The notes below the pieces were generated by a model. It was not told where the DNA came from and did no database searches. It saw only the letters and a program-made list of their open reading frames with translations. A stretch of DNA of 64,000 nt from Thermotogota bacterium (lineage in GTDB: Bacteria > Thermotogota > Thermotogae > Mesoaciditogales > Mesoaciditogaceae), in NCBI GenBank assembly GCA_026988035.1, contig JALSLY010000069.1, positions 15,337 to 79,336 of the forward strand, in the 5' to 3' direction. Below are positions 7,069 to 59,129 of this stretch, one piece after another. Made by a program: the position numbers and the translations under genes. The number at the start of each line of letters is the position of its first letter. Positions within the stretch are counted from its first letter, which is position 1.

Positions 7069-7070
7069 GA

Positions 7071-15414: not shown

Positions 15415-15443
15415 TTGACATTCTCTTGGAGAGAGGGTATAAT
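15415..15443 (+). promoter_or_regulatory. sigma-70-type promoter for the aroM/dpp operon
   Basis: TTGACA (15415-15420), an exact 17-nt spacer, then TATAAT (15438-15443). Both hexamers are consensus, and the site lies about 60 nt upstream of the aroM start. Confidence 0.6.
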
Positions 15444-15502
15444 TTTCAAAATGAATTATTAATTAATTTTTTTAATAGACGTTGAATAAGGGAATGAACT
15501 CT

Positions 15503-16201
15503 ATGAAATGGTGCTTGGTAACTATAGGACAATCTCCACGAGACGATTTAGTTCCAGAGTTGTTATCAATAACTGACCATGATTTCAGTTATACTGAAAT
15601 AGGGCTGCTTGACAGTCTATCATCTCTGGAAATTCAAGAGATGAAGCCAAATGAAGGTGATAGAGTACTGGTAAGCAGGTTGAGAAACGGAAACCAAGCA
15701 ATCTTAAGTCATGAAAAAGTTGAAAGAGCATTAAATGATTTGATTGATGAGAAAGTGTTTTGCGATGCGATGCTTTTGTTATGCACAAGTGAATTCAAAT
15801 CATTGATGAAAAAACGTAAAGACAAATTAGTGCTTATGCCTTCATTGATCTTGAAAAAATTTTTCGAGTCTTTCATTTCACCATTTGACTCTTTGGGAGT
15901 TGTGGTACCAGAGTTATCCCAAGTGATCGATGCAACGCAAAGATGGGAGAAAATAGCCAAAAATGTGTTTGCGGTGCATCTATCACCATATCTCAGTGAT
16001 GATGAAAACGAGTGGGGAAAAGTATCTGATTTCTTTCGAGAGAAAAAAGTAAATTACGTTGTGATGGATTGTATGGGATATTCGATTTTCCACAGTCGAA
16101 AATTGGGGGCACTGAGTAATTTACCGGTTTTTGCAGCTCGAGTGATAACTGGGAACTTCCTTCGAAATTTTATTGCTCAAGGAGATTCCAAATTAAAATA
16201 A
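15503..16201 (+). CDS. AroM family protein (function unknown)
   Basis: MKWCLVTIGQSPRDDLVPEL and the later MDCMGY motif resemble the AroM family (Asp/Glu-racemase-like fold) as I recall it. Alternative starts are at 15482 and 15494. Confidence 0.65.
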   Translation: MKWCLVTIGQSPRDDLVPELLSITDHDFSYTEIGLLDSLSSLEIQEMKPNEGDRVLVSRLRNGNQAILSHEKVERALNDLIDEKVFCDAMLLLCTSEFKSLMKKRKDKLVLMPSLILKKFFESFISPFDSLGVVVPELSQVIDATQRWEKIAKNVFAVHLSPYLSDDENEWGKVSDFFREKKVNYVVMDCMGYSIFHSRKLGALSNLPVFAARVITGNFLRNFIAQGDSKLK

Positions 16202-16215
16202 GGGGGTGTGTTTGA

Positions 16216-37913: not shown

Positions 37914-37917
37914 AGGA

Positions 37918-38433
37918 ATGATGAATTTGTATAAGAAGATTCTCATAGCTGTTGATGGTTCAGAAATGTCCGAAAATGTCTTCAATAAAGGAATGGAGCT
38001 TGCGAAGCTTCTCAATGCTAAAACATGTGTTACGGCAGTAGTTGATACAACAACTACTTACAACTTTCCCACCAGTATGGAAGAAACAGGGACCATATTT
38101 GTGGGAACAGAGATGGAATTAATGAAAGCTCAGGAAAAAATGCTGAGGGATTTTATTAAAAGGATGTTGAAGGAGCACTACGAACCAGAAATTGAGATAC
38201 GTTATGGTATACCGCATAAAGAAATATATGCGTGTGCTGAGGAGTGGGAGGCGGATCTCTTGATAATTGGAAGTCATGGAAAAGGAGGCTGGATATCAGA
38301 TTTGCTCTTTGGCTCGACTGCTGAAAAACTCTTGAAGATGTCAAAATGTGATGTCATGATCGTTAAATCAAGAAAAGCCAAGAGTGTTGATGAAACCCAC
38401 TCCTCCAGCGTCCAGGGAGGTTCAAAATCGTGA
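37918..38433 (+). CDS. universal stress protein (UspA family)
   Basis: YKKILIAVDGSE ... DLLIIGSHGKGG......GSTAEK.L....CDV.IV. The ATG at 37918 lies just after the polA stop. Confidence 0.85.
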   Translation: MMNLYKKILIAVDGSEMSENVFNKGMELAKLLNAKTCVTAVVDTTTTYNFPTSMEETGTIFVGTEMELMKAQEKMLRDFIKRMLKEHYEPEIEIRYGIPHKEIYACAEEWEADLLIIGSHGKGGWISDLLFGSTAEKLLKMSKCDVMIVKSRKAKSVDETHSSSVQGGSKS

Positions 38434-47600: not shown

Positions 47601-50600
47601 AATACGATCCGTTCACCGGTATCTATTCTTTGACCACAGAAGTACCATCCACAACTGGTCAGCAAGAATATAAAGTAGTTTACAACGGCGCATGGTATGG
47701 AGGTAACAACATACCAGTTAAATCTGGTACCGTAACGTTCTACTTTGATCCATCAATTGCTACAGATCCAAGCAAAGCTGTTGGTATAGGTGACACTTCA
47801 AAAGAATCGATGACGTGGTATTACGCAGGAGATTTAGGTGAAACGTGGAGCAAACCTCAGCAAATGCAATATATAGGTAACGGCACTTTCGTTGCTACAG
47901 AAACTGGTAATTTTAGTGTCGGCAATTACTACTTTAAAATTACACCCAACGTCAGTTGGGCATCTTCGCCATACTATTACAATGGAAGCATTTGGGGAAA
48001 CTTCAGTAGTAGTAGCAATGCGGGCTCTCTTCATCTTTCAACTGCGGCATCAAAAGTGGTGGTTGAATTCAACGTCCTGAAAAGCCTTGTGACACTTCAT
48101 CCTGTGATTTCTCCAACATATTACGTTGCCGGAAATTTCGACGGTTGGCAAAACGTTGTTGGCAATTCTAATTACAAAATGTCGCCTAATTCTTCCGGCA
48201 TTTACACGCTTAGCATGACATTACCCTCCACGACTGGTCAATACCAGTACAAGATAGTGGAATGGACGGGAACTCAAACCGTATGGTATGGAGGACCTGG
48301 TTCTAATGCGAATTATGGAAACATACCGGTTAAATCGGGAAACGTCACATTTTATTTTGATCCATCTATTGCAAGTGGTTCTCCATCTGGAGGAAACTCA
48401 GATGTAGGCATCGGCGATACGACAAAAGAGACTATGAAGTGGTACTTCGCTGGTGACATAAACAACTGGAGATTTGCAACGATGACATATGTTGGCAACG
48501 GCACTTTCGCCGCAACTATAACAAGGCCCGCGACGGATGATTCTGCCGGTGCTTATGGATTCAAAATAACACCTCAATCTACATGGAGCACACAACCTGC
48601 GAGTTTGACGCAGTATTACTTCAACGGTGGCTACGGTGGCTACTCTTCTCCCAATAACGGTACTGTAGTAGTTCCTCAGGCAACTACTGTTGTCGTTGAT
48701 TTCAACGTTTTAAACAGCTCAGTTAGTGCTAAAGCCGCCAAAATTCAGACGCTTCATCAGGTCATAATGGCGTATTTGGATTCGATGGATGAAATTCACG
48801 CAACACTTAACTCTACTGTTAATACTTCAAATCTTTCGCAGTTCAAATTTAGCGTTAACGGACACAACACTCCCATTTCTTCTGTTGTCGATGCAAATAC
48901 TGGATTGTCCGGAATCTCGAATTACATCACGATAAATCTTTCTACGCCTTTGAACCTATCTGATGTGGCAAGTTCTATGGTTCTAACTATAAATAACTTT
49001 AGCCCGGCTACAGTTTACGCCAGATACGCTCTTAACAATTCTGCTTTTCATTACGATGGCCAGCTTGGCGCGATTTACTCGCCTTACCAAACGACGTTTA
49101 AAGTGTGGTCACCTGTATCAGATCAAGTCGATCTTTTGCTTTTTAAAAACGCAAATGACACAACACCATACGCGACATACGCCATGACAAGAAATTCTCA
49201 AGGCGTATGGTCGACAAGCGTGATGGGAGATTTGAACGGAGTGTACTATGAATATTCTTATCACAGATATGGCGAATGGATAAGTGCGCCTGACATATAT
49301 TCCAAAGCCGCGAACGCCGATAACACTAAATCCATGGTGATCGATCTTTCGCAAACAGATCCATCTGGATGGAATGTTGATACAGCTCCATTCCCGAATA
49401 ACATGGTTGATGCGATCATATATGAATTGCACGTCCAGGACTTCACGGACAATCCCAACTCTGGAGTTTCACCTCAGTATCAAGGCACTTACATGGGATT
49501 CACGCAAACAGGCACAACTTACGATGGAATGCCAACGGGAGTAGATCATCTTGCTCAACTTGGAGTTAACTACGTGCAGCTTCTGCCGATAGAAGATTAT
49601 GAGGATCCACAAAATCCAGGATATAACTGGGGATACGTTCCCTACCTTTACATGGTGCCGGAGTCCAAATATTCCACAACTCCAAACGATCCGGCAAATA
49701 CAATTAATGAAGTCAAACAGATGATCGAGTCGCTTCATTCAAAAGGAATAGGTGTGATTTTAGACATATCTTTCAGCCACACATCGTACGTGACAACTCC
49801 ATACACAGCCGCAGTTCCATACTATTACTACAATTACAACGAGTATGGACAGAAAACGAATTACTCTGGAGTTGGAAATGATTTGGCAACCGGAAATTAC
49901 ATGGTTGAGAAGCTGATCGTCGACACGTTGAAATATTGGATGACGCAGTACCATATTTCAGGATTCAGATTTGACCAAATGTATCTGTACGATCCACAAA
50001 CCATCCAAGATATAGTACAAACACTTCGTGCATTGGATCCCGGTGTACTTCTCTATGGAGAGCCATGGAAAGCGAGTGGATACAAATTTACGTATTACGA
50101 TCAACGTGGAATGGATCTTGGTGTCTTTAACGGCTATTTCAGAGACGCGATGATAGGAACAGCTGACAATCCGACAGCAATGGGTTTTGTAAACGGCAAC
50201 GCTACAAGTACAAGTGTTCAAAGTGATATAAAGTCTGGAATTGTGGGAAGCGTTCCTTTTGAGACTCTTCCAAATACATTCGCTGCTGAACCTGATGAAA
50301 GTATAAATTATTCCACATGTCATGATAACTACACACTTTGGGACAAAATAACAATGGCTCAGCCAACTTGGAGCGCATCTGAAGACATCGCAGCTCAAAA
50401 ACTTGCAGGAGCAATTGTGATGCTCTCACAAGGAGTCGCCTTTATGCAAGGTGGAGCGGAATTTGCACGAACGAAAGATGGAAATGGAAATTCCTATAAT
50501 GTCCAGAGTCCGAACGAATTCGATTGGTCAAGACTCACACAATTTGCAACTGTTGATAGCTACTACCAAGGGCTGATAGCTATAAGAAAGGCTCATCCAG

Positions 50601-50884
50601 CTTTCAGGATGACATCATCTCAAGATATAGATGATAATTTGATTTTTCTTTCTGGGCTTGCCAATGGCGTGATTGGATATGAAATAAACGGAGGCTCTGT
50701 TGGTGATTCATGGTCTGACATCGTGGTTTACTTTAACGCTAATACAACAGCAAAAACTGTAACCTTACCAACTGGGACATGGAATATAGCTGTGAATGGA
50801 GCGATGGCGTCAACGAGCTCAATTGGCACAGCTTCAGGAACGATTCAAATTGTCCCATTGAGTGCCTACGTGTTCTATAAGTGA
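44606..50884 (+). CDS. giant cell-surface lipoprotein pullulanase (GH13 type I pullulanase catalytic core with FN3 and carbohydrate-binding-like modules)
   Basis: There is a signal peptide with the lipobox LSGC (Cys23). About five FN3-like modules follow, then three ~200-aa repeated modules (YVVGDFTNW / YVAGNFDGW). A CBM48-like segment (LGAIYSPYQTTFKVWSP) follows. The GH13 regions are YNWGYVPYLYM, GIGVILDISFSHT, GFRFDQM, YGEPW and YSTCHDN. Confidence 0.85.
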   Translation: MKSNRFLFFLAVLIAMAMILSGCFLFPKIGVLVKPTLISPPNKATGISTNVVLLWKEKGSFKNLNYRLFFGTSNPPAYQKTVDTTQTIENNLKYSTTYFWRVAAVNKSGKVATSDIWHFTTMALPTPSTPILSVTSVSTDSVSLQWTKSANAASITLYSVTSNQFSQVVTLSGTTTSYTLTNLEPATVYKFFVVASNTSGKATSNTVTATTQSIPAPPKPPLPSTPVLKVTSISTDSVSLGWSKSTNASAIDVYSATSNKFSQIASLSPNATSYMANNLKPSTTYKFFVVATNPSGKATSNTVTATTQSLPPSTPILSVGSVSTNTITLKWTQSKNSNLITIYQATSVNFSSIATLTGIATSYKVNDLKAFTTYKFFVVASNETGRATSNTVVATTLKIVIKPNPPKIFVNSPNTYSTLLTWSESSTNVVGFHIWRRSNSNEAYTLIASVSENKNSYTDIVNPGHTYSYMVSAYNSAGQSFSKSVSIFVGQNYFPMKTTSSLVTVNAQPSVQPQSTKVLGSNSYSLLNFIKTFKAAASSVQLIPTNEVITYQKLTSNGTTTYTVNISYAFAGQPNVELHLSFLVGDEKVYLQNFASYPILLLNSIYGNKPLSKTHVLSNSYSRNVTYISQMTFGNHTYNNVLKVTLTGPTMTLVFYLAPNEGLMRVDVLIDSSTAFSYTVTSTSTTIPPVYPQTPVIVSPAANSTVPSTFTLKFSGDSSTYTIYLNSQTLISTSSTIVEIGPLSDGTYTLSIKAANSYDLETLSQAVNFTVQGGWTATPTYVVGDFTNWATNSNYEMSYDPVNKTYSLTTSVPAPASTLTYGINRYLIEQVYKGEIVKYGYQPIPITSENVTFYFNQSMAKPFTSDGIGDTSKENRSWYFASDINGWTFSQMQASGTTFVATVATNGAFEPGTYGFKITPQAAFSTTPASLISYYFNGSYGAYYLPNGSFSIATPSNEIVVKFNILNSKITFEATNVTSVYLRSSFSSWSANMPDYKFKYDPFTGIYSLTTEVPSTTGQQEYKVVYNGAWYGGNNIPVKSGTVTFYFDPSIATDPSKAVGIGDTSKESMTWYYAGDLGETWSKPQQMQYIGNGTFVATETGNFSVGNYYFKITPNVSWASSPYYYNGSIWGNFSSSSNAGSLHLSTAASKVVVEFNVLKSLVTLHPVISPTYYVAGNFDGWQNVVGNSNYKMSPNSSGIYTLSMTLPSTTGQYQYKIVEWTGTQTVWYGGPGSNANYGNIPVKSGNVTFYFDPSIASGSPSGGNSDVGIGDTTKETMKWYFAGDINNWRFATMTYVGNGTFAATITRPATDDSAGAYGFKITPQSTWSTQPASLTQYYFNGGYGGYSSPNNGTVVVPQATTVVVDFNVLNSSVSAKAAKIQTLHQVIMAYLDSMDEIHATLNSTVNTSNLSQFKFSVNGHNTPISSVVDANTGLSGISNYITINLSTPLNLSDVASSMVLTINNFSPATVYARYALNNSAFHYDGQLGAIYSPYQTTFKVWSPVSDQVDLLLFKNANDTTPYATYAMTRNSQGVWSTSVMGDLNGVYYEYSYHRYGEWISAPDIYSKAANADNTKSMVIDLSQTDPSGWNVDTAPFPNNMVDAIIYELHVQDFTDNPNSGVSPQYQGTYMGFTQTGTTYDGMPTGVDHLAQLGVNYVQLLPIEDYEDPQNPGYNWGYVPYLYMVPESKYSTTPNDPANTINEVKQMIESLHSKGIGVILDISFSHTSYVTTPYTAAVPYYYYNYNEYGQKTNYSGVGNDLATGNYMVEKLIVDTLKYWMTQYHISGFRFDQMYLYDPQTIQDIVQTLRALDPGVLLYGEPWKASGYKFTYYDQRGMDLGVFNGYFRDAMIGTADNPTAMGFVNGNATSTSVQSDIKSGIVGSVPFETLPNTFAAEPDESINYSTCHDNYTLWDKITMAQPTWSASEDIAAQKLAGAIVMLSQGVAFMQGGAEFARTKDGNGNSYNVQSPNEFDWSRLTQFATVDSYYQGLIAIRKAHPAFRMTSSQDIDDNLIFLSGLANGVIGYEINGGSVGDSWSDIVVYFNANTTAKTVTLPTGTWNIAVNGAMASTSSIGTASGTIQIVPLSAYVFYK
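44984..45793 (+). repeat. three tandem paralogous FN3-module repeats inside the pullulanase gene
   Basis: The protein repeats STP(I/V)L.V.S(V/I)ST(D/N).(V/I)(S/T)L.W..S.N......Y.ATS..FS..A.L......Y....L...T.YKFFVVA.N..G.ATSNTV.ATT occur three times (about aa 127-212, 224-309 and 313-396). Confidence 0.8.
46921..48735 (+). repeat. three tandem ~600-nt modules (each a pair of carbohydrate-binding-like beta-domains) inside the pullulanase gene
   Basis: Three protein patterns recur three times: Y(V/L)..(D/S)F..W...(S/P)(N/D)Y.(M/F).YD/P....YSLT...PS; VTFYF(N/D)(Q/P)S.A...S..(V/I)GIGDT(S/T)KE...WY(F/Y)A(S/G)D; and Y.FKITP(Q/N)..(F/W)(S/A)(T/S).P. Confidence 0.6.
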
Positions 50885-51388: not shown

Positions 51389-52081
51389 TTAACGTGTTAG
51401 TTTGTTGTAAAGTAGTTGAAAGGCGTGAACAGCCACTCTTTCTATTTCAGCAACCGTTAGCTTCAACGGCTCGATCATCATTAAAGGCATAATGATGATT
51501 AGATTAAAAAGTGCTTGTATTGAAAAACCGTAAACAACAAAAACCGCAAGCGAATTCAACGCTATGATCACTGCAAAAAATTCAAATCCTGCACTGTTAG
51601 AACGCGGGCGAAAGTCGAAAACCTTTAAAGTCAGATAGGCAATTTTTGAAAATACTGCGATAACAAAGGCACAAAACAGGAAAACCAAGAGCACCCACCA
51701 ATCACGAAACAGCGGTGGTATTTCAAATCCCACAATCCATCCAAGTTTGTAAAGAATCAAAACCAGCGACCAAAAGAGTGGCCCTTCAGCTAAAAAGATC
51801 GACAATCCATTTATCTTCATCATGATCGAGATCGACATTGGAACGATAAAGAGAATGAAAAACAGTGATCCACCTAAATCATTAAATGCAAAGATTATCA
51901 CGGAAGCCACCACAACGATTCTTAACCATTCAGAACGTGATTGATTCATGGCATACACAAGTGGAAACACAGCTAAGTAACTTATGGCCGTTCCAATCCC
52001 GTAGATCATTTGAAATGTATAGATAAGAGCAGTTAAAGCCCCCAAAATGGCACTTTCAGCATTTTGCCGTGCTTTAGTCAT
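51389..52081 (-). CDS. hypothetical integral membrane protein (about 6 TM segments)
   Basis: 230-aa ORF, strongly hydrophobic throughout. I recognise no catalytic motif. Confidence 0.65.
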   Translation of the reverse strand: MTKARQNAESAILGALTALIYTFQMIYGIGTAISYLAVFPLVYAMNQSRSEWLRIVVVASVIIFAFNDLGGSLFFILFIVPMSISIMMKINGLSIFLAEGPLFWSLVLILYKLGWIVGFEIPPLFRDWWVLLVFLFCAFVIAVFSKIAYLTLKVFDFRPRSNSAGFEFFAVIIALNSLAVFVVYGFSIQALFNLIIIMPLMMIEPLKLTVAEIERVAVHAFQLLYNKLTR

Positions 52082-52130
52082 CGAAGGTCGCCACCTTCCC
52101 CGCTCATAACATCAATACAAAGCTCTGCAC

Positions 52131-52394
52131 TTAACCATTCAATTCTTTTCTAAGCCCCTTTTGTGATGTGAAACCTGTTTTTTTCTGGATATTCTTGTGT
52201 TTTACTGCGGAACTTCTTTTCTCGATTGGACTCACAGCGAGTTTTAAAATATCTTCTGGAACTTTTGAAAGATTTTCCAAGTACATTTCAAGGGCTTTGC
52301 GCATAAGATAACTTTTGGGCCTGTCAAGTTTCTGGGCATATTTTTCAAGTTTCCTCTCAAGTTTTTCTGGCAATCTAAGAGATATCAATTTCAT
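52131..52394 (-). CDS. ribbon-helix-helix (CopG/MetJ-type) DNA-binding protein
   Basis: MKLISLRLPEKLERKLEKYAQKLDRPKSYLMRKALEMYLE is a textbook RHH strand-helix-helix N-terminus, followed by a basic tail. Confidence 0.75.
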   Translation of the reverse strand: MKLISLRLPEKLERKLEKYAQKLDRPKSYLMRKALEMYLENLSKVPEDILKLAVSPIEKRSSAVKHKNIQKKTGFTSQKGLRKELNG

Positions 52395-52509
52395 AGTATC
52401 ACCTCGTATTACATTATATCACAAAGCAAAAATTCATCTGCAAACAAAAAACGTTTAACGTTCCATTAACTTCCCACCCGTATAATTTTGTACAAACAAC
52501 AAATAATGG

Positions 52510-52524
52510 TGGTGGAGTCCACCA
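52510..52524. promoter_or_regulatory. 7-1-7 palindrome in the divergent intergenic region (candidate operator)
   Basis: TGGTGGA-G-TCCACCA read directly. It lies about 50 nt upstream of the first gene of the membrane complex and about 115 nt upstream of the divergent RHH gene. Confidence 0.35.
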
Positions 52525-52576
52525 GAAAGCTTTTTAGCCAATGACTCCTACCCATCCCACGGATAGGAGGTTTTTT

Positions 52577-53530
52577 ATGCTGTTAATTTTTCTAAGCATT
52601 TTGCAGTTGTTCTATGTGCTACTGCTTTCACCGTTAATCTTCGGAATCTTTTCAAAATTCGAAGAGAGAATCGAATCTAAAAAAGGACCAAGTATTTTTC
52701 AACCTTACTACGATCTTTTCAAACTTTTTAGAAAACAAGTCGTCGTCCCTGAGGTGTCGTCTCCGTTTTTTCATGTGGTGCCTTACGTAGAATTTGCATT
52801 GTACTCGCTTTTGACGTTAGTCCTACCAATAATAACGGCCTTTCCACTTGAATTTGGGCCAACGGTGGATTTCATCGGTGGAGGTTTGATCTTTGGAGCA
52901 GCAGCGCTGTTGAAGAAAATAGCATCTTTGGACAGTCGAAGCAATTATTCGCATCTTGGAGTTTCTCGAGCAGCAAGCATGGGAGCATTGGCAGAACCAA
53001 TAACGGTTTTAATATTCATTATGTTAGGCGTTATCTCAAAGACAAATAACCCTTACATCATAAACAACGTACTTCAAACATCATCAAGTTGGTATCTTTC
53101 GTTGACACACTGGTTTGTTGCCGCTGCATTTTTCATGATCTTGCTTGTTGAAACCGGAAAACTTCCAATAGAACATCATTCCACAGCTGAGCTTGGTATG
53201 ATTGATCAGGCAATGGATCTGGAGTACTCAGGAATGGACCTCGCCTTCTACAAATGGGGAGGATATATAAAGAAATTTTTGCTCATGAGTGTGTTTGTGA
53301 ACGTGTATACGGTGCCGTTTTTCGTACCTATGAAGTATAATCTGTCTTCGATTGCCATATATACAGGAATTCACTTTTTAAAGCTTCTCGGTCTTGTGAT
53401 TAGTATGGGGCTATTAGAGGAAAGTATTTCAAAATTCAGACTCTTCAAAAATTTCGATTACATGGCTATCTCCTTCTCTTTGGCCTTTCTGAGTTTCTTG
53501 GCGTTTTACACAACGAATGGAGGTTTCTAA
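52577..53530 (+). CDS. NuoH / HycD / HyfC-like membrane subunit
   Basis: A polytopic membrane protein of about 317 aa. The ATG at 52577 lies 7 nt after GGAGG. The charged loop motifs (PIEHHSTAELGMIDQAMDLEYSG) are typical of the NuoH/HycD quinone-chamber subunit family. Confidence 0.75.
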   Translation: MLLIFLSILQLFYVLLLSPLIFGIFSKFEERIESKKGPSIFQPYYDLFKLFRKQVVVPEVSSPFFHVVPYVEFALYSLLTLVLPIITAFPLEFGPTVDFIGGGLIFGAAALLKKIASLDSRSNYSHLGVSRAASMGALAEPITVLIFIMLGVISKTNNPYIINNVLQTSSSWYLSLTHWFVAAAFFMILLVETGKLPIEHHSTAELGMIDQAMDLEYSGMDLAFYKWGGYIKKFLLMSVFVNVYTVPFFVPMKYNLSSIAIYTGIHFLKLLGLVISMGLLEESISKFRLFKNFDYMAISFSLAFLSFLAFYTTNGGF

Positions 53531-53531
53531 G

Positions 53532-54167
53532 ATGGAGAAGTTTTTCGCACTTATTGGCTTTTTTGAGATACTGCTGGTTCTCTTTATGCAATGGGAAGTG
53601 TATACCAAGAAAATCATCACAACCTTTTCCATAGCGTCTTACACGATCGCCGTCTTTTTGTTTTATCTTGGAATCATGGAAAACAAGTATCTGGTCGTTA
53701 TCCTGGCAGTTCTCACGGCTGGGGTAAGAGGATTTTTTATACCATGGTTTATGAAAAAAAGAATAGTCAGGGATCCATGGAGAGAAAGGGAAATAAAACC
53801 AACGATAAGCACGGCTTTATCGATATTAATATCACTTTCTGTGGTAATCTTCGCTTACGTGCTGTACAGGATCACATTTTACGATTCGGTTCACCTTTCG
53901 GATGGTTCCATACCAATAGCACTGATTCTCCAGGGAGTTTTCTTAATGATTTCAAGAAGAAATGCCTTCATTCAGCTTATAGGCTACATGATGATGGAAA
54001 ACGCCATCTTTTTATTCGAGGGCTATCTTTTTCCAGCGCTCCCATTTATTGTTGAGGCGGGAGTTATTCTTGATCTGATAGGTATCATCGCGATAGCGGG
54101 AATTGTGGTTAAGATGATGAAAAACTCCACGACAGATTCAAATGAATTCGACGAGTTGAAAGGATGA
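53532..54167 (+). CDS. HyfE-like small membrane subunit (hydrogenase-4 component E family)
   Basis: About 211 aa with 6-7 TM segments. The size and position between HyfC-like and HyfF-like genes match hyf-type operon order. The ATG at 53532 follows GGAGG. Confidence 0.65.
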   Translation: MEKFFALIGFFEILLVLFMQWEVYTKKIITTFSIASYTIAVFLFYLGIMENKYLVVILAVLTAGVRGFFIPWFMKKRIVRDPWREREIKPTISTALSILISLSVVIFAYVLYRITFYDSVHLSDGSIPIALILQGVFLMISRRNAFIQLIGYMMMENAIFLFEGYLFPALPFIVEAGVILDLIGIIAIAGIVVKMMKNSTTDSNEFDELKG

Positions 54168-54173
54168 ATTGAG

Positions 54174-55553
54174 ATGGGATACATTTACTCACTTCCAATG
54201 ATTTTTACCGCTATAGGTGCCGTGCTGTGTTTGAGTAGGAGCATGTATTTTGAAGAATTTGTTTCCGTGATATCTGCCCTCGCCACAGTTGTTGTGACAG
54301 GCACTGTTGTTTTTCTTCCCGATTTTTCAAATGGCTTTCTCTATATAGATGGTCTTTCAAAAATCATGCTCATTATGATATCTGCCATATACACATCAAC
54401 AGTCATTTTCTCAACAACGTACATGAAGTATATAGAGAATCCTCTCTTTGAGAAGAATTTTTACTACTTTTTGATGAATCTCTTTGCGTTCACGATGTTC
54501 TTCACGGTTTCTGTTAACAATTTTGGGTTGATGTGGGTAGGAGTGGAAGCTACAACGGTCACAAGTGCACTCCTGGTAGCGACTGAAAACAACGAGTCAT
54601 CCATGGAAGCAACATGGAGGTACATAATAATCGTGTCGTCTGGTTTGATAATCTCACTGCTTTCGAACGTATTCATATACAGTGCCACACACACACTTTC
54701 ACTCTCGATGCTCATGTCTATGAAGGTCACAAATGCTGGTAAGATTTTAACGCTCGGCTCAATGATGGCCATTGTTGGATACGGAACAAAAGCCGGGATC
54801 TTTCCAATGCACACCTGGCTTCCGGACGTTCATGGCAAGGCACCAGCACCTGTTAGTGCCATATTTTCTGGTGTGCTCTTACCTGTGGCACTTTATGTCA
54901 TGGCTCGAATACTTCAAATTGTACCTGTTGAGAGTGTTAGAATATTCTCATTTGCACTTGGATTCTTGACAGTCTTAATTGCCGCAGTATTAATGGTGGC
55001 TCAAGGACATTACAAACGCCTTTTTGCATACTCAACAATGGAGAACATGGGAATGGCTCTGATCGGTTTATCACTTGGGAAATACGCTTTCATTGGGGCA
55101 ATAATTTTGTTAATATCGCATGCCTTTGCCAAGTCATCGGCATTTTTTCTTACCGGAAATGTGCTTGCGAAATACAAATCTCATAAAATGACTGATGTAA
55201 AAGGGATATCAAAGCGTATGCCTTTTACTGCCTATACACTCATGTTCTCTTCAATGGCTGTTACCGGCACGCCTCCTTTCGGCACATTCATAGGAGAGTT
55301 TATGATAATCTATGGCATGCTCTTGAACTTTCCACTCTTTTACACTTTAACACTTGTGGGATTCCTTGCACTGGCCTTCATAGCTGTAAATTTCAAGATC
55401 GGAAAGATGATCTTCTCAGAGTCCGATGGTGAAATGATGGAGAGAAAGAGAGTTGGAAGGATTGTACCCATGGTGAATACGTCCCTCGCCTTCCTTGTCG
55501 TCTTCTTAATACCGCAAATCCAGGAGATTCTTTCCAAGGGGATGATAAGATGA
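54174..55553 (+). CDS. Mrp/NuoM/N/HyfF-like antiporter-type membrane subunit
   Basis: Proton_antipo_M signature region: GYGTKAGIFPMHTWLPDVHGKAPAPVSAIFSGVLLPVALY ... AYSTMENMG. 459 aa. Confidence 0.85.
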   Translation: MGYIYSLPMIFTAIGAVLCLSRSMYFEEFVSVISALATVVVTGTVVFLPDFSNGFLYIDGLSKIMLIMISAIYTSTVIFSTTYMKYIENPLFEKNFYYFLMNLFAFTMFFTVSVNNFGLMWVGVEATTVTSALLVATENNESSMEATWRYIIIVSSGLIISLLSNVFIYSATHTLSLSMLMSMKVTNAGKILTLGSMMAIVGYGTKAGIFPMHTWLPDVHGKAPAPVSAIFSGVLLPVALYVMARILQIVPVESVRIFSFALGFLTVLIAAVLMVAQGHYKRLFAYSTMENMGMALIGLSLGKYAFIGAIILLISHAFAKSSAFFLTGNVLAKYKSHKMTDVKGISKRMPFTAYTLMFSSMAVTGTPPFGTFIGEFMIIYGMLLNFPLFYTLTLVGFLALAFIAVNFKIGKMIFSESDGEMMERKRVGRIVPMVNTSLAFLVVFLIPQIQEILSKGMIR

Positions 55554-56785
55554 AGAAACTTCTAGGTGCTTACATACAAGATGGTAGGAAGTATATCATC
55601 CTTCAAGAGAATGGAAAAGTTGTTGCGTTAGAAGGAAATGCAAGTGAGTTTAAGAATTCAGAGCTCCTGAAAAACAGAAATGAGTATGTAAAAAATGTGT
55701 TAGAAAAAGAAGAGATCTATGGCGATGACGTCTTCGATTTCAGATACGGTCCTGTCACAAGCGGAGTCGGAGAAGCTGGAGTTTACCATCTTTACACATA
55801 TGGCGAAAGAATTTTATCGGTAAAAATCGATACTTCTTATAAAAGGCGAGCCCTGGACGATAAAATGATAAGCTCTGATATTAACGATGCACTGAAACTC
55901 TCAGAAGAGATATGCGGTAACTTTGCCATTTCGCATTCCATAGCATTTTCAAGAGCCGTTGAGAACGCTCTGAAGATAGAAGTAAGTAGGGATATCAAAG
56001 CTTTGAAGGCGATTGCCATAGAACTCGAGAGAATTTACAACCACCTTTATGTGATATCCAGACTTGCCGGAGCCGCGGCTCAACAAGTCCTCGCCTCGCA
56101 TCTTATGGGCCTTTTTGAAGATTCGCTCGTTGTCAACAAAATCTTCTCTGGTTCCAGATACCTGATCAGATTCAACTCGATAGGCAGCGTGCTCAGATTT
56201 CCATCGCATGAAGAATTAAAAGATGTGACAGATAAGGTTAAAAAAATCAAAAGCGCCTTTTCGGAATTGTACAAGAATTCAATGTCGAGCGGGAATTACA
56301 TCGACAGGTTGCACCTCACCGCCACTTTAAGCGCAAAAGACGCGGAACTCATAGGGCTGACCGGTCCGAGCTTAAGAGCCTGTGGAGTGAAAGAAGACTT
56401 AAGGACTCATGATGAGATCTATCGCGGAATAAAAATAGTATCAGATGAAGAGGGGGATGCGCTTTCAAGAATGGAAGTGCGAGCCGGAGAGATTCTTGAA
56501 AGCTTGAAATTCATCCAGAAAACAGTTGATAATTTAAGCTTGGATAAAGCGATGCCTTTCATTTCAACTGAAAGTGGTGAAGGAATTGGATGGAGTGAAT
56601 CCCCCAGTGGAACGATCATCTACCATGTTGAGATAGAGAACTTTAGAATCAAGAGCGTTTATGTGTCAACGCCTTCCGTTTTCGGGATGTCTGCTATAGC
56701 ACATTCAATGGTTGGCAATATATTCACAGATTTTCCATTTGCTGTGGAGTCTTTTGGCGTCAATTTCTCAGACGCGGCGAGATGA
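55550..56785 (+). CDS. NuoD / HycE-large-subunit-like protein lacking the NiFe-binding cysteines
   Basis: 411 aa. The family blocks LSEEICGNFAISHS (position of RxCGxCxxxH), ELERIYNHL and GLTGPSLRACGVKEDLR are present. The C-terminus is ESFGVNFSDAAR (position of DPCxxCxxR). The start overlaps the upstream stop (ATGA). Confidence 0.8.
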   Translation: MKKLLGAYIQDGRKYIILQENGKVVALEGNASEFKNSELLKNRNEYVKNVLEKEEIYGDDVFDFRYGPVTSGVGEAGVYHLYTYGERILSVKIDTSYKRRALDDKMISSDINDALKLSEEICGNFAISHSIAFSRAVENALKIEVSRDIKALKAIAIELERIYNHLYVISRLAGAAAQQVLASHLMGLFEDSLVVNKIFSGSRYLIRFNSIGSVLRFPSHEELKDVTDKVKKIKSAFSELYKNSMSSGNYIDRLHLTATLSAKDAELIGLTGPSLRACGVKEDLRTHDEIYRGIKIVSDEEGDALSRMEVRAGEILESLKFIQKTVDNLSLDKAMPFISTESGEGIGWSESPSGTIIYHVEIENFRIKSVYVSTPSVFGMSAIAHSMVGNIFTDFPFAVESFGVNFSDAAR

Positions 56786-56797
56786 GGGGTGGTATTG

Positions 56798-57256
56798 ATG
56801 AAATGGTGGCCAATGGTTGGAATATCAAAGATGCTAACCGAGGATAAAAAGTACGAATCTAAAGCGCGTGTGAAAAAAATGGGGATTTTCAGAAGATCTT
56901 TTCACATCTATACGATAGACGTTGGAAATTCCAACATTCTCAATTTTGAAATGCGAGCACTTCAAACTCCAAAATACAACGTCCACAGATTCGGTATATA
57001 TTTTGCCGCTTCTCCACGACATGCAGATTTGTTGATCGTTTTGGGAAGGCCGACAAAAAAGATGGTCGCCCCCCTTTTGGAAACTATCAATCAAATTCCA
57101 GAACCTTTCGGTGTCATACTTCTAAAAGGCTGCGGGAGTAGCGGAATTGATCTTGACGAATTAAAACTTCCAAACGTTGTGGCAAGCGTGAATGGGTGTC
57201 CAGAGCCTTCGGAGATCCTCGCCATTCTTTTAAAAATATCTGGAAGGGTTGATTAA
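56798..57256 (+). CDS. NuoB / HycG-small-subunit-like protein with an incomplete Fe-S cysteine set
   Basis: SFHIYTIDVGNSNILNFE, YNVHRFGIYFAASPRHADLLIVLG, PEPFGVILLKGCGSSG and VNGCPEPSEIL are collinear with the NuoB/HycG blocks. The GTG at 56789 is an alternative start. Confidence 0.75.
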   Translation: MKWWPMVGISKMLTEDKKYESKARVKKMGIFRRSFHIYTIDVGNSNILNFEMRALQTPKYNVHRFGIYFAASPRHADLLIVLGRPTKKMVAPLLETINQIPEPFGVILLKGCGSSGIDLDELKLPNVVASVNGCPEPSEILAILLKISGRVD

Positions 57257-57257
57257 G

Positions 57258-59129
57258 ATGATTTGCATATACTTTTCTTTCCTGTTTTTTGCACTTGGAG
57301 CATTGACCACGTTTTCAAAGAGATTGAGCTACAGTATGGCAACGATCGCATCCGCTCTTGCATTCGTAACGGCGCTCTTGGGTATGCACACCACTTTCGC
57401 TTCCGGCACGTACCTACTCCTCAACGGGTTCAGCCTGAGCATAGGAATGGATCATACAAGCGCGATCTTTTTGCTTATCGCATCGATATCGTGGTTTGCC
57501 ATTTCACTGTACTCTATAGATTATGGCATGAATTATTCCAAAAAGATGCCGATTTTCTTCAACGCTGCACTTTTCGGAATGTTTCTCGTTTTGATAGCCA
57601 GAGATGCATTAACATTTATAGGTGGATGGGAGATAGCTACGATTTTCTCTTATCTTTTGATAATGGAACACAAACACTCTTTCAAAGAAGCGTTCGAATT
57701 TCTCGCGTTTGGTGAAATTTCAACCGTCTCATTACTCGTCGCCTTTGCATCCCTTTATCTCAAGAATCATTCGCTCGCAATCATTGGAGCACACGGAACC
57801 TGGATTTTTTTGCTCATGGCTACGATAGCATTCATGACAAAAATGGGTACCTATCCGTTGCACACATGGCTTATAGGTGCACATTCCAGAGCTCCTTCGA
57901 ACGTTTCCGCGTTTTTGAGTGCACCATTGACTTTGATGGGTGTTTACGGTCTGGTAAGGGCGTTATCCATAGCTGGTCAACCCGAATGGTGGGGCGTGGC
58001 GGCAATGATCTTTGGTGGATTTTCCGCGTTCTGGGGCGCTTTGCAAGCCGCAGCAGCCAAAGGGCTCAAAATATTACCGGCGTATTCAACTGTTGAAAAC
58101 AACGGGATGATTCTCGCGACGTTGGGATTGTCTGTAACTGCGTACAGTGCACATTTGGCAGTGTTATCTTCTTTTGCCATGATCACATCGCTGATCTTGC
58201 TTTTTGCACACAACACGACAAAATCACTTTTGTTCATGGCGGTAGGCCATGCAAAAGAAGCGCTTGATGAAGACACGATCGACAACGTCAGAGGTATATG
58301 GACATCAGTTGGCAAGATCCCGGCAATATCCATATTGATCTCGGGACTTTCTTTCAGTGCTTTTCCACCACTAATTGGATTTCTTGGCGAATGGATGACG
58401 CTGGAAGCGCTCTTTCAATCGTACAAATTTCCATCCATGTTAGATAGACTAAGCGCCGCATTTGTGGGAATACTAATAGCCCTTGCAATGGGAATGGCAG
58501 CGTTTTCAATGGTGAAACTCACAGGATACACGGCGCTTGGATATGATCACGGCAAAAAGGCAAGAAATATCTCATCATTCACCATGAAGCTTTCTGAAAT
58601 GCTCCTTTCTCTTACCGTTCTGTTGGCAGGACTCTTTTCTCCATACATATTGAAGTATTTTGGGTACGGGACTTTTCTATCCGGTCTCTTTGGAGTTCCA
58701 AAACCGTTTCTTATCGTTTCTTCTCACCCTGTCTTCGGTGTGGTTTCACCTACATTTCTGGCAGTCGTTATCGGAACTCTGTTTCTGTTTCCTCTGATAT
58801 TTTACTTGGCAAAATCGGGAAAAGTCAAAAGGGTTAGCGCCTGGAACGGTGGTATAGCTCTAAAAGAGGAAGAATACTTTACGGCACCGGCTTACTCGTT
58901 TACCCTTGAGTACATAATGAGAAAAGTGTACTCTATGAAAGAGATCAAGCATGGAAACAAAAGATACGTCTCAGTCAAAGATATTACAACATCATTTTAC
59001 AACGGCTTGAAACATGCAGTGGAAATCATGGCCAAATCCTTATCACTCACTTTGATGAACGGACACGTATATTCGTACGTACTGTACACGATGATCATGT
59101 TTGTTCTCCTCTTTTTTATGGTTAAGTAA
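57258..59129 (+). CDS. NuoL / HyfB / HycC-like antiporter-type membrane subunit
   Basis: About 623 aa. Proton_antipo_M region: KMGTYPLHTWLIGAHSRAPSNVSAFLSAPLTLMGVYGL ... AYSTVENNG. The TTG at 57249 is an alternative start. Confidence 0.85.
   Translation: MICIYFSFLFFALGALTTFSKRLSYSMATIASALAFVTALLGMHTTFASGTYLLLNGFSLSIGMDHTSAIFLLIASISWFAISLYSIDYGMNYSKKMPIFFNAALFGMFLVLIARDALTFIGGWEIATIFSYLLIMEHKHSFKEAFEFLAFGEISTVSLLVAFASLYLKNHSLAIIGAHGTWIFLLMATIAFMTKMGTYPLHTWLIGAHSRAPSNVSAFLSAPLTLMGVYGLVRALSIAGQPEWWGVAAMIFGGFSAFWGALQAAAAKGLKILPAYSTVENNGMILATLGLSVTAYSAHLAVLSSFAMITSLILLFAHNTTKSLLFMAVGHAKEALDEDTIDNVRGIWTSVGKIPAISILISGLSFSAFPPLIGFLGEWMTLEALFQSYKFPSMLDRLSAAFVGILIALAMGMAAFSMVKLTGYTALGYDHGKKARNISSFTMKLSEMLLSLTVLLAGLFSPYILKYFGYGTFLSGLFGVPKPFLIVSSHPVFGVVSPTFLAVVIGTLFLFPLIFYLAKSGKVKRVSAWNGGIALKEEEYFTAPAYSFTLEYIMRKVYSMKEIKHGNKRYVSVKDITTSFYNGLKHAVEIMAKSLSLTLMNGHVYSYVLYTMIMFVLLFFMVK

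What the first reader, a model, noticed from the sequence alone, without database searches (positions are those of the whole stretch)
52577..59129. Six-gene complex-I / group-4-hydrogenase-like membrane module lacking a recognisable redox input (Ehr-type complex)
- The tightly packed or overlapping genes encode, in order: a NuoH/HycD-like subunit, a HyfE-like subunit, a HyfF/NuoN-like antiporter subunit, a NuoD/HycE-like subunit, a NuoB/HycG-like subunit, and a HyfB/NuoL-like antiporter subunit.
- No NuoC-like domain, NuoI/HycF-like 2x[4Fe-4S] ferredoxin subunit, hydrogenase maturation (hyp/hycI) gene, formate dehydrogenase or NuoEFG-like input module is present in or next to the operon.
- Combined with the degenerate cofactor ligands in the two soluble-arm subunits (separate findings), this fits what the comparative literature on complex I relatives calls energy-converting-hydrogenase-related (Ehr) complexes, as far as I recall.
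- I believe the substrate, partner and ion specificity of that class remain experimentally undefined.
- In a fermentative anaerobe this is a candidate for a novel ion-translocating function.
Basis: partly seen in the sequence, partly recalled or inferred. Interest (0 to 1): 0.7.

Follow-up and report, generated by a model that had tools for sequence, protein, structure and literature searches.

The report
Fluoride-switched cofactor-less hydrogenase-like membrane complex
Six genes encode a relative of respiratory complex I and membrane hydrogenases that has lost its metal centres, and a fluoride-sensing RNA switch sits directly in front of them, which gives this long-uncharacterised "Ehr" class of complexes a first testable role in fluoride stress.

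Summary
The six-gene module is real (52577-59129, + strand): NuoH/HycD-like, HyfE-like, HyfF-like, NuoD/HycE-like, NuoB/HycG-like and HyfB/HycC-like. The large subunit has only two Cys and no NiFe motifs. The small subunit keeps 2 of the 4 cluster Cys. No NuoC, NuoI, hyp, FDH or NuoEFG gene lies anywhere in the 64 kb. This fits the literature class "Ehr", whose function is still called unknown in 2025.

Its 3' pseudoknot strand can pair with the operon's Shine-Dalgarno sequence instead.

Across 80 related loci the gene order H-E-F-D-B-L is fixed.
- 38 of 48 bacterial loci carry the riboswitch directly upstream at E<=1e-3.
- 6 more have weak hits at the same position.
- 4 carry a riboswitch elsewhere in the locus; in 3 of these it precedes a crcB or CrcB/DUF190 gene next to the operon.
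- 0 of 16 archaeal or outgroup loci, which keep all four cluster Cys, have one.

All canonical ion-translocation residues are invariant.

Best reading: a fluoride-induced, non-redox ion translocator, probably cation/proton antiport for pH and membrane-potential homeostasis. The riboswitch literature listed such genes as "formate hydrogen lyase"; this one cannot be a hydrogenase.

The parts
52481..52486 (+). TATAAT box, a candidate -10 element about 10 nt before the aptamer
   Evidence: Read from the sequence. The consensus scan did not report it because no good -35 is present. This is inference only.
52499..52557 (+). Fluoride riboswitch aptamer (crcB motif, RF01734). P1 is 52508-52511 with 52520-52523. 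The pseudoknot is 52514-52518 with 52544-52548.
   Evidence: Rfam gives 37 bits against a gathering score of 34, E 4.5e-9 locally and 1.3e-6 for the whole window, with the full model 1-64 matched. It is the only gathering-level Rfam hit in the 64 kb. My own covariance model scores it 64.7 bits. Across 42 instances P1 and the pseudoknot are 98.9% paired, with 41 compensatory cells, against about 50% in the slid controls.
52545..52570 (+). Expression platform. CUCCUA (52545-52550, which overlaps the 3' pseudoknot strand) pairs with UAGGAG (52564-52569). That covers the Shine-Dalgarno AGGAGG (52565-52570).
   Evidence: The MFE and centroid folds of 52495-52590 form this hairpin. It is mutually exclusive with the pseudoknot. 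The inferred logic is a translational ON switch.
52577..53530 (+). NuoH/HycD-like membrane subunit (317 aa)
   Evidence: PF00146 E 3e-25. HycD 7z0s_D E 1e-28. E192, E199, E205, D210 and E216-Y217 of the TM5-6 loop region, plus K49, K53, D98, R131 and H178, are at least 95% conserved in bacteria (most invariant) and are the majority residue in archaea.
53532..54167 (+). HyfE-like membrane subunit (211 aa) with a NuoK-like C-terminal half
   Evidence: NF008556 E 3e-10. PF00420 is weak. Invariant E156, E175, D181 and Q148-N157. No sequence relative in the PDB.
54174..55553 (+). HyfF/NuoM/N-like antiporter-like subunit (459 aa)
   Evidence: PF00361 E 3e-50. NF005042 436 bits against a cut-off of 437. 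Invariant E125 (TM5), K206 (TM7), H316/K320 (TM11) and E375 (TM12). The TM8 Lys position is Pro237.
55550..56785 (+). NuoD/HycE/MbhL-like large subunit (411 aa) without NiFe ligands
   Evidence: AlphaFold2 pLDDT 93.1. Foldseek best match is HycE 7z0s_E, E 1.5e-21. The family signature is FRYGPV, CGNFxxSHS, ELERIYNH, FTDFPF and DSFGxNFADxxR.
56798..57256 (+). NuoB/HycG-like small subunit (152 aa) with 2 of the 4 cluster Cys
   Evidence: HycG E 1e-13 and MbhJ E 3e-12. Below the Pfam cut-off. All family members start MKWWP, which fixes the start at ATG 56798.
57258..59129 (+). HyfB/HycC/NuoL-like antiporter-like subunit (623 aa) with a C-terminal extension of about 150 aa
   Evidence: HycC 7z0s_C E 6e-34. 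NF005046 329 bits. Invariant E125, K195, H318/K322 and E378. The TM8 Lys position is T225/L226.

Best explanation
This is a fluoride-inducible member of the Ehr class. It is a six-subunit descendant of group-4 membrane hydrogenases and complex I, and it has lost both the NiFe site and a canonical iron-sulfur cluster.

Shown:
- A fluoride riboswitch lies in the 5' leader.
- Without ligand, the 3' pseudoknot strand can pair with the Shine-Dalgarno sequence. Fluoride binding would free the ribosome-binding site and switch on the operon.
- The riboswitch and operon pairing is conserved across bacterial phyla.
- The peripheral subunits cannot carry an electron-transfer chain.
- The ion-translocation residues of all four membrane subunits are invariant.

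Inferred:
- With no redox input, the complex works as a secondary ion translocator of the Mrp kind. The downhill flow of one cation (Na+ or K+) through one path drives H+ through the antiporter-like subunits and the E-channel.
- This expels the protons that HF brings into the cytoplasm. It also restores the membrane potential that fluoride channels need.
- The conserved large and small subunit cap acts as a non-redox coupling or gating lid on the NuoH-like channel.

Sub-probabilities:
- Ehr-type, cofactor-poor and fluoride-riboswitch-controlled: about 0.9.
- Physiological role in fluoride tolerance: about 0.8.
- Specifically cation/proton antiport: about 0.4.
For: Identity:
- Family and PDB matches for all six subunits.
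- The gene order H-E-F-D-B-L is fixed in the 80 related loci in which all six genes were recovered, from Thermotogota, Desulfurellales/Campylobacterota, Bacteroidota, Ignavibacteria, Spirochaetota and archaea.

No redox chain:
- There are two Cys in each peripheral subunit, and no NuoI, NuoC, hyp, FDH or NuoEFG in the 64 kb.
- Cys2 of the cluster site is Leu or Met in every bacterial member, and most members have lost all four.

Fluoride control:
- RF01734 scores above its gathering score at 52499-52557.
- Rfam gathering-level hits lie upstream of the operon in Hippea maritima, Mesoaciditoga, Athalassotoga, Campylobacterales, Desulfurellales and Spirochaetales loci.
- With my own covariance model, 38 of 48 bacterial loci have a hit at E<=1e-3 and 6 more have weak hits in the same place. 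The last 4 have riboswitch hits elsewhere in the locus; in 3 of them (L022, L026, L027) one precedes a crcB or CrcB/DUF190 gene that lies between it and the operon. None of the 16 archaeal or outgroup loci has one.
- Covariation supports P1 and the pseudoknot, and a Shine-Dalgarno-sequestering alternative hairpin forms.

Regulon context:
- Fluoride riboswitches in the same loci precede CrcB, DUF190, MutS-domain-V proteins, pyrophosphatase and phosphoesterases.

Functional membrane arm:
- TM5 Glu, TM7 Lys, TM11 His/Lys and TM12 Glu are 100% conserved in both antiporter-like subunits. So are two Glu in the NuoK-like part and the acidic TM5-6 loop of the NuoH-like subunit.

Literature:
- After fluoride exporters, Na+/H+ antiporters are the next most common riboswitch-associated genes. 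HF entry acidifies the cytoplasm, and 'formate hydrogen lyase' genes are among the most common riboswitch-associated genes (PMC11139923; PMC2864571).
Against: - No transport or fluoride phenotype has been measured for any member.
- Nothing in the sequence names the coupling ion.
- The MrpB, E, F and G subunits of true Mrp antiporters are absent.
- A plain antiporter would not obviously need two soluble subunits, yet these are conserved at 43-83% identity with about 48 invariant positions. Most pocket residues are shared with the archaeal clade, which still has clusters. The cap may therefore do chemistry that I cannot see.
- The window's small subunit keeps two Cys, and close relatives keep three (L005, L006, L023). 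A non-canonical cluster in this sub-clade is not excluded.
- The central TM8 Lys of antiporter-like subunits is missing in both subunits.
- Only 64 kb of the genome is visible, so partners encoded elsewhere cannot be ruled out.
Confidence: 0.5

Rival explanations
1. The complex is itself a fluoride (or HF) exporter. The former hydrogenase pocket and the tunnel at the large/small/NuoH-like interface bind the anion, and the antiporter-like subunits couple its export to the proton or sodium gradient.
For: The riboswitch control is near-universal. Only 4 of about 50 bacterial loci have crcB nearby, and the window has none. The pocket is under strong constraint and is rich in Phe, Asn, Arg, Tyr and His (F62, F64, R65, Y66, N124, F125, H129, F395, F397, F406). 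From my own knowledge, these are the residue types that coordinate fluoride in Fluc and CLC-F. The cluster loop of the small subunit has become an invariant Asn-rich loop, D41-x-G-N-x-N-x-L-N.
Against: Most of those pocket residues are equally conserved in the archaeal clade, which has no riboswitch. Where crcB is present, it sits beside the complex behind a riboswitch hit (L022, L026, L027), and this argues for complementary rather than redundant roles. No complex-I relative is known to move anions. No coordinates were available to inspect a tunnel.
Confidence: 0.17
2. It is a redox-driven ion pump whose electron input module (for example a formate dehydrogenase or ferredoxin-binding protein) is encoded elsewhere. 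This is the usual proposal for Ehr.
For: An FDH-Ehr partnership has been proposed for Riflemargulisbacteria and Saganbacteria (PMC6349859). Geobacter Ehr subunits are more abundant on formate (PMC7894505). The archaeal sister clade keeps the proximal cluster and a Cys-rich, weakly Fer4-like N-terminal extension on the small subunit. The window's small subunit keeps two Cys, and they are co-retained.
Against: Cys2 is lost in all bacterial members, and most have no cluster Cys at all. Electrons therefore have no path to the pocket. No redox gene is a conserved neighbour in the 80 loci, and none lies in the 64 kb. Regulation is by fluoride, not by a redox substrate.
Confidence: 0.1
3. It is a genuine formate hydrogenlyase or hydrogenase-4, as such genes are labelled in genome annotation and in the riboswitch literature. 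In that reading it is induced to shift metabolism towards fermentation under fluoride.
For: The best PDB matches are E. coli FHL subunits HycC, D, E and G. Sources name relatives 'Ni,Fe-hydrogenase III large subunit'. The reviews say 'formate hydrogen lyase'.
Against: The large subunit has two Cys in total and none in the C-terminal 130 residues, so a NiFe site is impossible. There is no HycF, FdhF, hyp or HycI. All NCBIfam scores are below the curated cut-offs. HydDB treats Ehr as non-hydrogenase (PMC5037454).
Confidence: 0.02
4. It is a decaying, non-functional relic of a hydrogenase operon.
For: Cofactor ligands are lost, and the small subunit falls below the Pfam threshold.
Against: All six ORFs are intact with fixed order in 510 matches in a collection of one genome per species. 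Functional residues are invariant. The AF2 model is high-confidence. A covarying riboswitch is conserved.
Confidence: 0.02

Closest known systems
Ehr (Ech/energy-converting hydrogenase-related) complexes of Geobacter, Desulfotomaculum, Nitrospira and ammonia-oxidising archaea
   Same: They share the same six subunit types, a large subunit without NiFe Cys, no maturation genes, and an unknown function. The Nitrososphaerota complexes form the sister clade in my tree and share the gene order H-E-F-D-B-L.
   Different: The bacterial clade that holds this window has lost the small-subunit cluster ligands (the window keeps 2 of 4, most members none). It lacks the Cys-rich N-terminal extension of the archaeal small subunit, and it is preceded by a fluoride riboswitch. 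The archaeal clade has 4 Cys and no riboswitch. The Geobacter gene names (ehrA first) suggest that the NuoL-like gene comes first there; this rests on my own knowledge. Orthology to Geobacter was not tested.
E. coli formate hydrogenlyase (Hyd-3, PDB 7Z0S) and Hyf (Hyd-4)
   Same: These are the closest solved relatives for four subunits: HycC 6e-34, HycD 1e-28, HycE 6e-21 and HycG 1e-13. HyfE and HyfF are the closest named families for the other two.
   Different: This operon has no NiFe site, no proximal cluster, no HycF or HycB ferredoxins, no FdhF, and no full NuoC-like domain.
Mrp-type multisubunit cation/proton antiporter
   Same: It has two PF00361 antiporter-like subunits with the TM5 Glu, TM7 Lys and TM12 acidic/basic set, plus a NuoK/MrpC-like element and no redox input. 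This is the proposed mode of working.
   Different: It has no MrpB, E, F or G. It has NuoH-like, NuoB-like and NuoD-like subunits that Mrp lacks. It is not a member of the Mrp family.
Mbh/Mbs of Pyrococcus (6CFW, 6U8Y) and respiratory complex I
   Same: They share the peripheral NuoB/NuoD pair docked on a NuoH-like subunit, followed by antiporter-like subunits. MbhL is the best sequence match of the large subunit at 5e-24.
   Different: Those complexes use three or more Fe-S clusters and a catalytic site (NiFe, polysulfide or quinone) to drive pumping. This one has no such chain.
Fluoride riboswitch regulon (crcB/Fluc, CLC-F, Na+/H+ antiporters, enolase, pyrophosphatase, MutS-like, 'formate hydrogen lyase')
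   Same: The aptamer is the same (RF01734). The co-regulated neighbours in related loci are the same kinds of gene. 'Formate hydrogen lyase' was listed as associated as early as 2010.
   Different: The literature reads those genes as a real FHL and a metabolic shift. Here the regulated complex cannot be a hydrogenase.

Membership tests
Ehr complex | Six subunit types: NuoL/HyfB-like, NuoH-like, HyfE-like, HyfF/NuoN-like, large (NuoD-like) and small (NuoB-like) | tested here: met
   Subunit names for Geobacter Ehr come from PMC7894505.
Ehr complex | The large subunit lacks the Cys of both NiFe-binding motifs | tested here: met
   The only Cys are C122 and C278. L1 reads CGNF and the C-terminus reads GVNFSDAAR. 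The same holds in all 112 aligned relatives.
Ehr complex | Groups with complexes that the literature names Ehr | tested here: met
   It is sister to the Nitrososphaerota (Nitrosocosmicus, Nitrososphaerales, Nitrosopumilaceae) clade in the NJ tree and shares its gene order. Those complexes are called Ehr in PMC10432482. NJ only, with no bootstrap.
Ehr complex | Orthology to Geobacter sulfurreducens ehrABCDLS (GSU0739-0745) | not tested
Group 4 [NiFe] hydrogenase (FHL/Hyf/Mbh/Ech) | L1 RxCGxCxxxH and L2 DPCxxCxxH/R motifs in the large subunit | tested here: not met
Group 4 [NiFe] hydrogenase (FHL/Hyf/Mbh/Ech) | Four Cys for the proximal [4Fe-4S] in the small subunit | tested here: not met
   S45 and L48 replace CxxC. 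Only C112 and C134 remain.
Group 4 [NiFe] hydrogenase (FHL/Hyf/Mbh/Ech) | 2x[4Fe-4S] ferredoxin subunit (HycF/NuoI-like) and hyp/endopeptidase maturation genes | tested here: not met
   None in the 64 kb. The rest of the genome was not visible.
Respiratory complex I (Nuo/Ndh) | Cluster N2 ligands in NuoB, and NuoA, C, I, J plus an electron-input module | tested here: not met
   NCBIfam NuoB, NuoD and NuoH scores are far below their cut-offs.
Respiratory complex I (Nuo/Ndh) | Quinone-ligating His (beta1-beta2 loop) and Tyr of NuoD | tested here: inconclusive
   The loop reads GPVTSGVGEAG, with no His. The PDB alignments to Nqo4 start only at residue 119, so positional equivalence was not established.
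Mrp antiporter | MrpA-G subunit set | tested here: not met
   Only MrpA/D-like (PF00361) and a NuoK/MrpC-like element are present. There is no MrpB, E, F or G among the six genes.
Fluoride riboswitch (RF01734) | Score at or above the Rfam gathering threshold over the full model | tested here: met
   37 bits against 34, with model positions 1-64 of 64 matched.
Fluoride riboswitch (RF01734) | P1 and pseudoknot supported by covariation; location in the 5' leader of the regulated gene | tested here: met
   98.9% paired, 41 compensatory cells, and slid controls of 45-55%. The aptamer ends 19 nt before the ATG.
Fluoride riboswitch (RF01734) | Binds fluoride and switches expression | not testable with these tools
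   Needs in-line probing or a reporter assay.

The most novel reading that the evidence does not exclude
The gutted hydrogenase module has been re-used as an anion site. In this reading the complex is a third, energy-coupled class of fluoride/HF exporter. Alternatively it is a fluoride-gated proton pump. Either way it would be the first complex-I relative whose 'substrate' is not a redox couple, and it would explain why the soluble cap stays so conserved after losing every cofactor.
Probability: 0.15. Interest if true: 0.95.

Novelty: new variant of a known kind. Interest (0 to 1): 0.72.

Why it matters
Ehr complexes have been catalogued since 2005-2013 in Geobacter, sulfate reducers, nitrifiers and candidate phyla. 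Papers as late as 2025 still say the function is unknown. Separately, riboswitch papers have listed 'formate hydrogen lyase' among the commonest fluoride-riboswitch genes and read it as a metabolic shift.

This window joins the two threads. The fluoride-regulated 'FHL' here is a cofactor-less Ehr complex, and across the loci I sampled the loss of the Fe-S ligands coincides with riboswitch control. I found no paper in the searchable library that links the two. Baker et al. 2012 and Marreiros et al. 2013 could not be read.

If this holds, three things follow.
- It gives a concrete, testable phenotype for an orphan bioenergetic complex, with a cultured, fully sequenced carrier (Hippea maritima).
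- It offers a natural example of a complex-I-type membrane arm that runs without redox chemistry, which is useful for the debate on the coupling mechanism.
- It corrects a misannotation in accounts of fluoride resistance.

Tried and rejected
- I looked for a conserved partner gene by clustering 585 neighbour ORFs of 80 loci. None is universal. The recurrent neighbours (MutS-domain-V protein, DUF6062, USP, phosphoesterase, DUF190, enolase, pyrophosphatase) first looked like noise. They made sense only after the riboswitch was found.
- DUF6062 sits at +1 in Mesoaciditoga and Athalassotoga loci but is absent from the window.
- No crcB is present in the window.
- The consensus promoter and terminator scan was uninformative: 25 against 17 expected, and 7 against 7.
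- The HyfE-like subunit has no sequence relative in the PDB.
- I tried to identify the source organism by exact protein look-up. Taxonomy therefore rests on the nearest relatives: 79% to an 'uncultured Thermotogae' MAG and 64% to Mesoaciditoga.
- I could not obtain Baker et al. 2012, Breaker 2012 or McIlwain et al. 2021.
- Model coordinates are not exposed, so pocket geometry and Cys-Cys distances could not be measured.
- A bacteria-specific residue screen of the large subunit gave only R65, D94, H129, N249, L275 and T374 (also G6 and F189). There is no clear fluoride-site signature.
- P2 of the riboswitch was left out of my covariance model because MAFFT did not align it consistently.

Full report
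OBSERVATION

Six + strand ORFs fill 52577-59129. The junctions are gaps of 1, 6, 12 and 1 nt plus one 4-nt overlap. Pfam, NCBIfam and PDB sequence searches assign them as follows.
- NuoH/HycD-like: PF00146 E 3e-25; HycD 7z0s_D E 1e-28.
- HyfE-like: NF008556 E 3e-10.
- HyfF-like: PF00361 E 3e-50; NF005042 436 bits against a cut-off of 437.
- NuoD/HycE/MbhL-like: PF00346 E 6e-21; 6cfw_L E 5e-24.
- NuoB/HycG-like: HycG E 1e-13, but PF01058 only 22.9 bits, below its cut-off of 27.
- HyfB/HycC-like: 7z0s_C E 6e-34.

Every NCBIfam hit is below its curated cut-off, so none of the six is an equivalog of a named Nuo, Hyf or Hyc protein. The first gene starts at ATG 52577, 6 nt after AGGAGG. The small-subunit start is ATG 56798, because every relative begins MKWWP.

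ABSENCES AND LIGANDS

I scanned every ORF of 120 aa or more in the 64 kb against Pfam. The window holds these functions:
- fucose, xylose/sugar and peptide uptake and catabolism;
- a LarA / EtfBA / FAD-oxidase cluster;
- PolA, MutS, PFK and pyruvate kinase;
- a 2092-aa pullulanase;
- downstream, an aldo-keto reductase, panC and ispG.

It holds no NuoC, NuoI/Fer4, Hyp, HycI, formate dehydrogenase or NuoEFG.

The large subunit contains only two Cys, C122 and C278. The L1 motif reads EEIC-G-N-F-AISHS, so the second Cys has become Phe125. The C-terminus reads G-V-N-F-S-D-A-A-R where hydrogenases have DPCxxCxxR. The L2 equivalence is by motif spacing, but with no Cys in the last 130 residues a NiFe site is impossible in any case.

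The small subunit has two Cys. HycG CGGC and MbhJ CNGC align to S45-N-I-L48. The third (C112, KGCG) and fourth (C134, GCPEP) ligands remain.

THE FAMILY

The large subunit has full-length relatives at 43-83% identity. A pattern scan of one genome per species found 510 encoding loci. The closest are an 'uncultured Thermotogae' MAG (79%) and Mesoaciditoga (64-53%), then Athalassotoga. Further out are Desulfurellales/Hippea, Campylobacterota, Bacteroidota, Ignavibacterium and Spirochaetota. More distant again are Nitrososphaerota, Archaeoglobaceae, Thermoplasmata and Methanoperedens. In the 80 loci fetched, the order H-E-F-D-B-L recurs with near-identical sizes, including in the complete genome of Hippea maritima.

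An NJ tree of the large subunit splits a bacterial clade from an archaeal clade.
- Archaeal small subunits keep all four Cys (CNAC...GAC...GCPP). They match PF01058 at 88-102 bits and carry a Cys-rich, weakly Fer4-like N-terminal extension.
- In every bacterial member Cys2 is Leu or Met, and most have lost all four.
- The Mesoaciditoga-like lineage (the window included) and one spirochaete lineage keep Cys3 and Cys4 together. A few of these (L005, L006, L023) also keep Cys1.

The archaeal clade includes the genera whose complexes the literature calls Ehr. The subunit list matches Geobacter Ehr. Papers up to 2025 state that the function of Ehr is unknown.

THE MEMBRANE ARM IS INTACT

Across 48-53 bacterial and 12-17 archaeal sequences per subunit, these residues are 100% conserved.
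- HyfF-like: E125 (TM5), K206 (TM7), H316/K320 (TM11) and E375 (TM12).
- HyfB-like: E125, K195, H318/K322 and E378.
- NuoK-like half of the HyfE-like subunit: E156, E175 and D181.

In the NuoH-like subunit, K49, K53, D98, R131, H178 and the acidic run E192, E199, E205, D210 and E216-Y217 are at least 95% conserved in bacteria (most invariant) and are the majority residue in archaea. That run aligns with the TM5-6 loop of HycD and ND1. One family-wide oddity is that the central TM8 Lys/His of antiporter-like subunits is Pro237 in one subunit and T225/L226 in the other.

The large subunit folds with high confidence (pLDDT 93.1). It superposes best on HycE (E 1.5e-21, TMq 0.88) and on NuoCD (TMq about 0.86). 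Nearly all NuoD-only chains give TMq 0.77-0.81, so the roughly 55-residue N-terminal beta-meander probably overlays part of the NuoC-like domain. About 48 positions are invariant in 112 relatives. Most are shared with the archaeal clade.

THE DECISIVE CLUE

A scan of the leader against Rfam found a fluoride riboswitch aptamer (RF01734, crcB motif) at 52499-52557 (+). It scores 37 bits against a gathering score of 34 and matches the full model. It is the only gathering-level Rfam hit in the window. A TATAAT box lies about 10 nt before it.

The unliganded MFE fold pairs CUCCUA (52545-52550), which overlaps the 3' pseudoknot strand ACUCC (52544-52548), with UAGGAG (52564-52569). That hairpin covers the Shine-Dalgarno sequence. 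Forming the fluoride-stabilised pseudoknot should therefore free the ribosome-binding site. This is a translational ON switch by inference.

THE ASSOCIATION IS GENERAL

Rfam gathering-level hits lie just upstream of the NuoH-like gene in 7 of 10 loci tested. These include Hippea maritima, Mesoaciditoga, Athalassotoga, Campylobacterales, Desulfurellales and Spirochaetales. A covariance model built from nine instances was run over all 82 sources. The results were these.
- 38 of 48 bacterial loci that have upstream sequence carry a hit at E<=1e-3. L010 was added by hand because its ORF was over-extended.
- 6 further loci have weak hits at the same spot.
- The remaining 4 (Bacteroidota) have riboswitch hits elsewhere in the locus. 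In L022, L026 and L027 one precedes a crcB or CrcB/DUF190 gene that lies between it and the operon.
- None of the 16 archaeal or outgroup loci has one.

In 42 aligned instances, P1 and the pseudoknot are 98.9% paired with 41 compensatory cells. Slid controls give 45-55%.

Other riboswitch-preceded genes in these loci are CrcB, DUF190, MutS-domain-V proteins, inorganic pyrophosphatase, metallophosphoesterases, a CFA synthase and dynamin-like GTPases. This explains the neighbour clusters seen earlier.

LITERATURE

[quoted passage not shown] A 2024 review cites Baker et al. [quoted passage not shown] The same review notes that Na+/H+ antiporters are the second most common class, because HF entry acidifies the cytoplasm and drains the proton-motive force (PMC11139923).

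I infer that those 'FHL' genes are the complexes described here, but I could not read Baker 2012 to check. No paper in the searchable library combines fluoride with Ehr, energy-converting hydrogenases or hydrogenase-4.

MECHANISM

Shown:
- fluoride-riboswitch control;
- no possible NiFe site;
- no canonical cluster and no ferredoxin subunit;
- an intact, strongly constrained ion-translocation apparatus;
- no conserved redox neighbour.

Inferred: without a redox drive, the only energy available to a complex of this architecture is an ion gradient. It should therefore act as a secondary exchanger of the Mrp type, Na+ or K+ against H+. That would remove the protons delivered by HF and restore the potential that drives fluoride out through Fluc. 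The large and small subunit cap would serve as a non-redox coupling or gating lid on the NuoH-like channel.

This fits the co-location with crcB in Bacteroidota, which suggests complementary roles. It also fits the hosts. From my own knowledge, Mesoaciditoga, Athalassotoga and Hippea are moderately acidophilic thermophiles of volcanic or hydrothermal settings, where HF stress is strongest.

I rate 'fluoride-regulated, cofactor-poor Ehr complex' at about 0.9, a role in fluoride tolerance at about 0.8, and cation/proton antiport specifically at about 0.4.

Rivals:
- Direct fluoride/HF export: 0.15-0.2. The pocket is rich in Phe, Asn, Arg and His, and crcB is usually not nearby. However, the pocket is equally conserved in riboswitch-less archaea.
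- A redox pump with an unlinked partner: about 0.1.
- A true FHL: refuted by the sequence.
- A relic: refuted by the conservation.

NOVELTY

The Ehr class and the riboswitch-'FHL' association are each on record. The apparently new points are that they are the same object, that the regulated complex cannot be a hydrogenase, and that loss of the Fe-S ligands coincides with riboswitch control in the loci sampled. I file it as a new variant of a known kind. The caveat is that Marreiros et al. 2013 and Baker et al. 2012 were not readable here.

Noticed in passing
window 7071-12600: A LarA-like lactate racemase, an NlpC/P60 protein, EtfB and EtfA, and an FAD-linked oxidase lie in a row. This looks like a lactate-utilisation (LDH/Etf-type) cluster next to fucose catabolism genes (536-7068).
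   Followed up: no
window 44606-50884: A single 2092-aa ORF combines FN3 repeats, CBM48, X25 and pullulanase/alpha-amylase domains. It is a very large secreted pullulanase, just upstream of the operon.
   Followed up: no
window 51389-52394 (- strand): An RHH/CopG protein (87 aa) and a 230-aa protein with no Pfam match are transcribed divergently from the riboswitch-operon promoter region.
   Followed up: partly
small subunit, window 56798-57256; relatives in A3: Cys3 (KGC) and Cys4 (GCP) of the former cluster site are kept or lost together across relatives, with only L013 as an exception. Some Mesoaciditoga and spirochaete members also keep Cys1 (GNCN). This could mean a residual metal site or a thiol pair in this sub-clade.
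   Followed up: partly
HyfF-like residue 237 and HyfB-like residues 225-226 (window about 54882 and 57930): The central TM8 Lys/His found in the reference antiporter-like subunits compared here (NuoM, MbsH, HycC, MbhH) is Pro in one subunit and Thr/Leu in the other. This is conserved in both the bacterial and the archaeal clade.
   Followed up: partly
L038 (Bacteroidetes MAG), 584-16729; also L022, L026, L029, L030, L034, L046: These are 'fluoride islands': up to six riboswitch hits in about 17 kb. They precede CrcB, MutS-domain-V, CFA synthase, metallophosphoesterase, pyrophosphatase, dynamin-like GTPase and a Cys-rich 201-aa protein, around the Ehr-like operon.
   Followed up: partly
L017 6804-7050, L007 6568-7021, L024 5532-7050: Two fluoride riboswitches on opposite strands sit upstream of the Ehr-like operon. 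They are about 100-300 nt apart in L017 and L007 and about 1.4 kb apart in L024. One drives the Ehr-like operon and the other drives a 528-538-aa MutS-domain-V protein.
   Followed up: partly
L009, L010, L012, L017, L021, L024 at +1 of the operon: A Cys-rich DUF6062 protein (about 218 aa) directly follows the operon in Mesoaciditoga and Athalassotoga relatives. It is absent from the window, where an aldo-keto reductase follows instead.
   Followed up: partly
archaeal loci L061-L075 at +1: A universal-stress-protein-like gene (about 144 aa) lies next to the operon in 9 of the archaeal loci. The window has a Usp gene far away, at 37897-38433.
   Followed up: no
L002 13598-13716 (Hippea maritima): A Moco/tungsten riboswitch (87.5 bits) lies immediately after the Ehr-like operon and ahead of two solute-binding-protein genes.
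   Followed up: no
small-subunit relatives: Almost all relatives of the small subunit carry no precomputed Pfam domain, and several are named 'hypothetical protein'. Automated annotation will therefore often miss that the module has a NuoB-like subunit.
   Followed up: no
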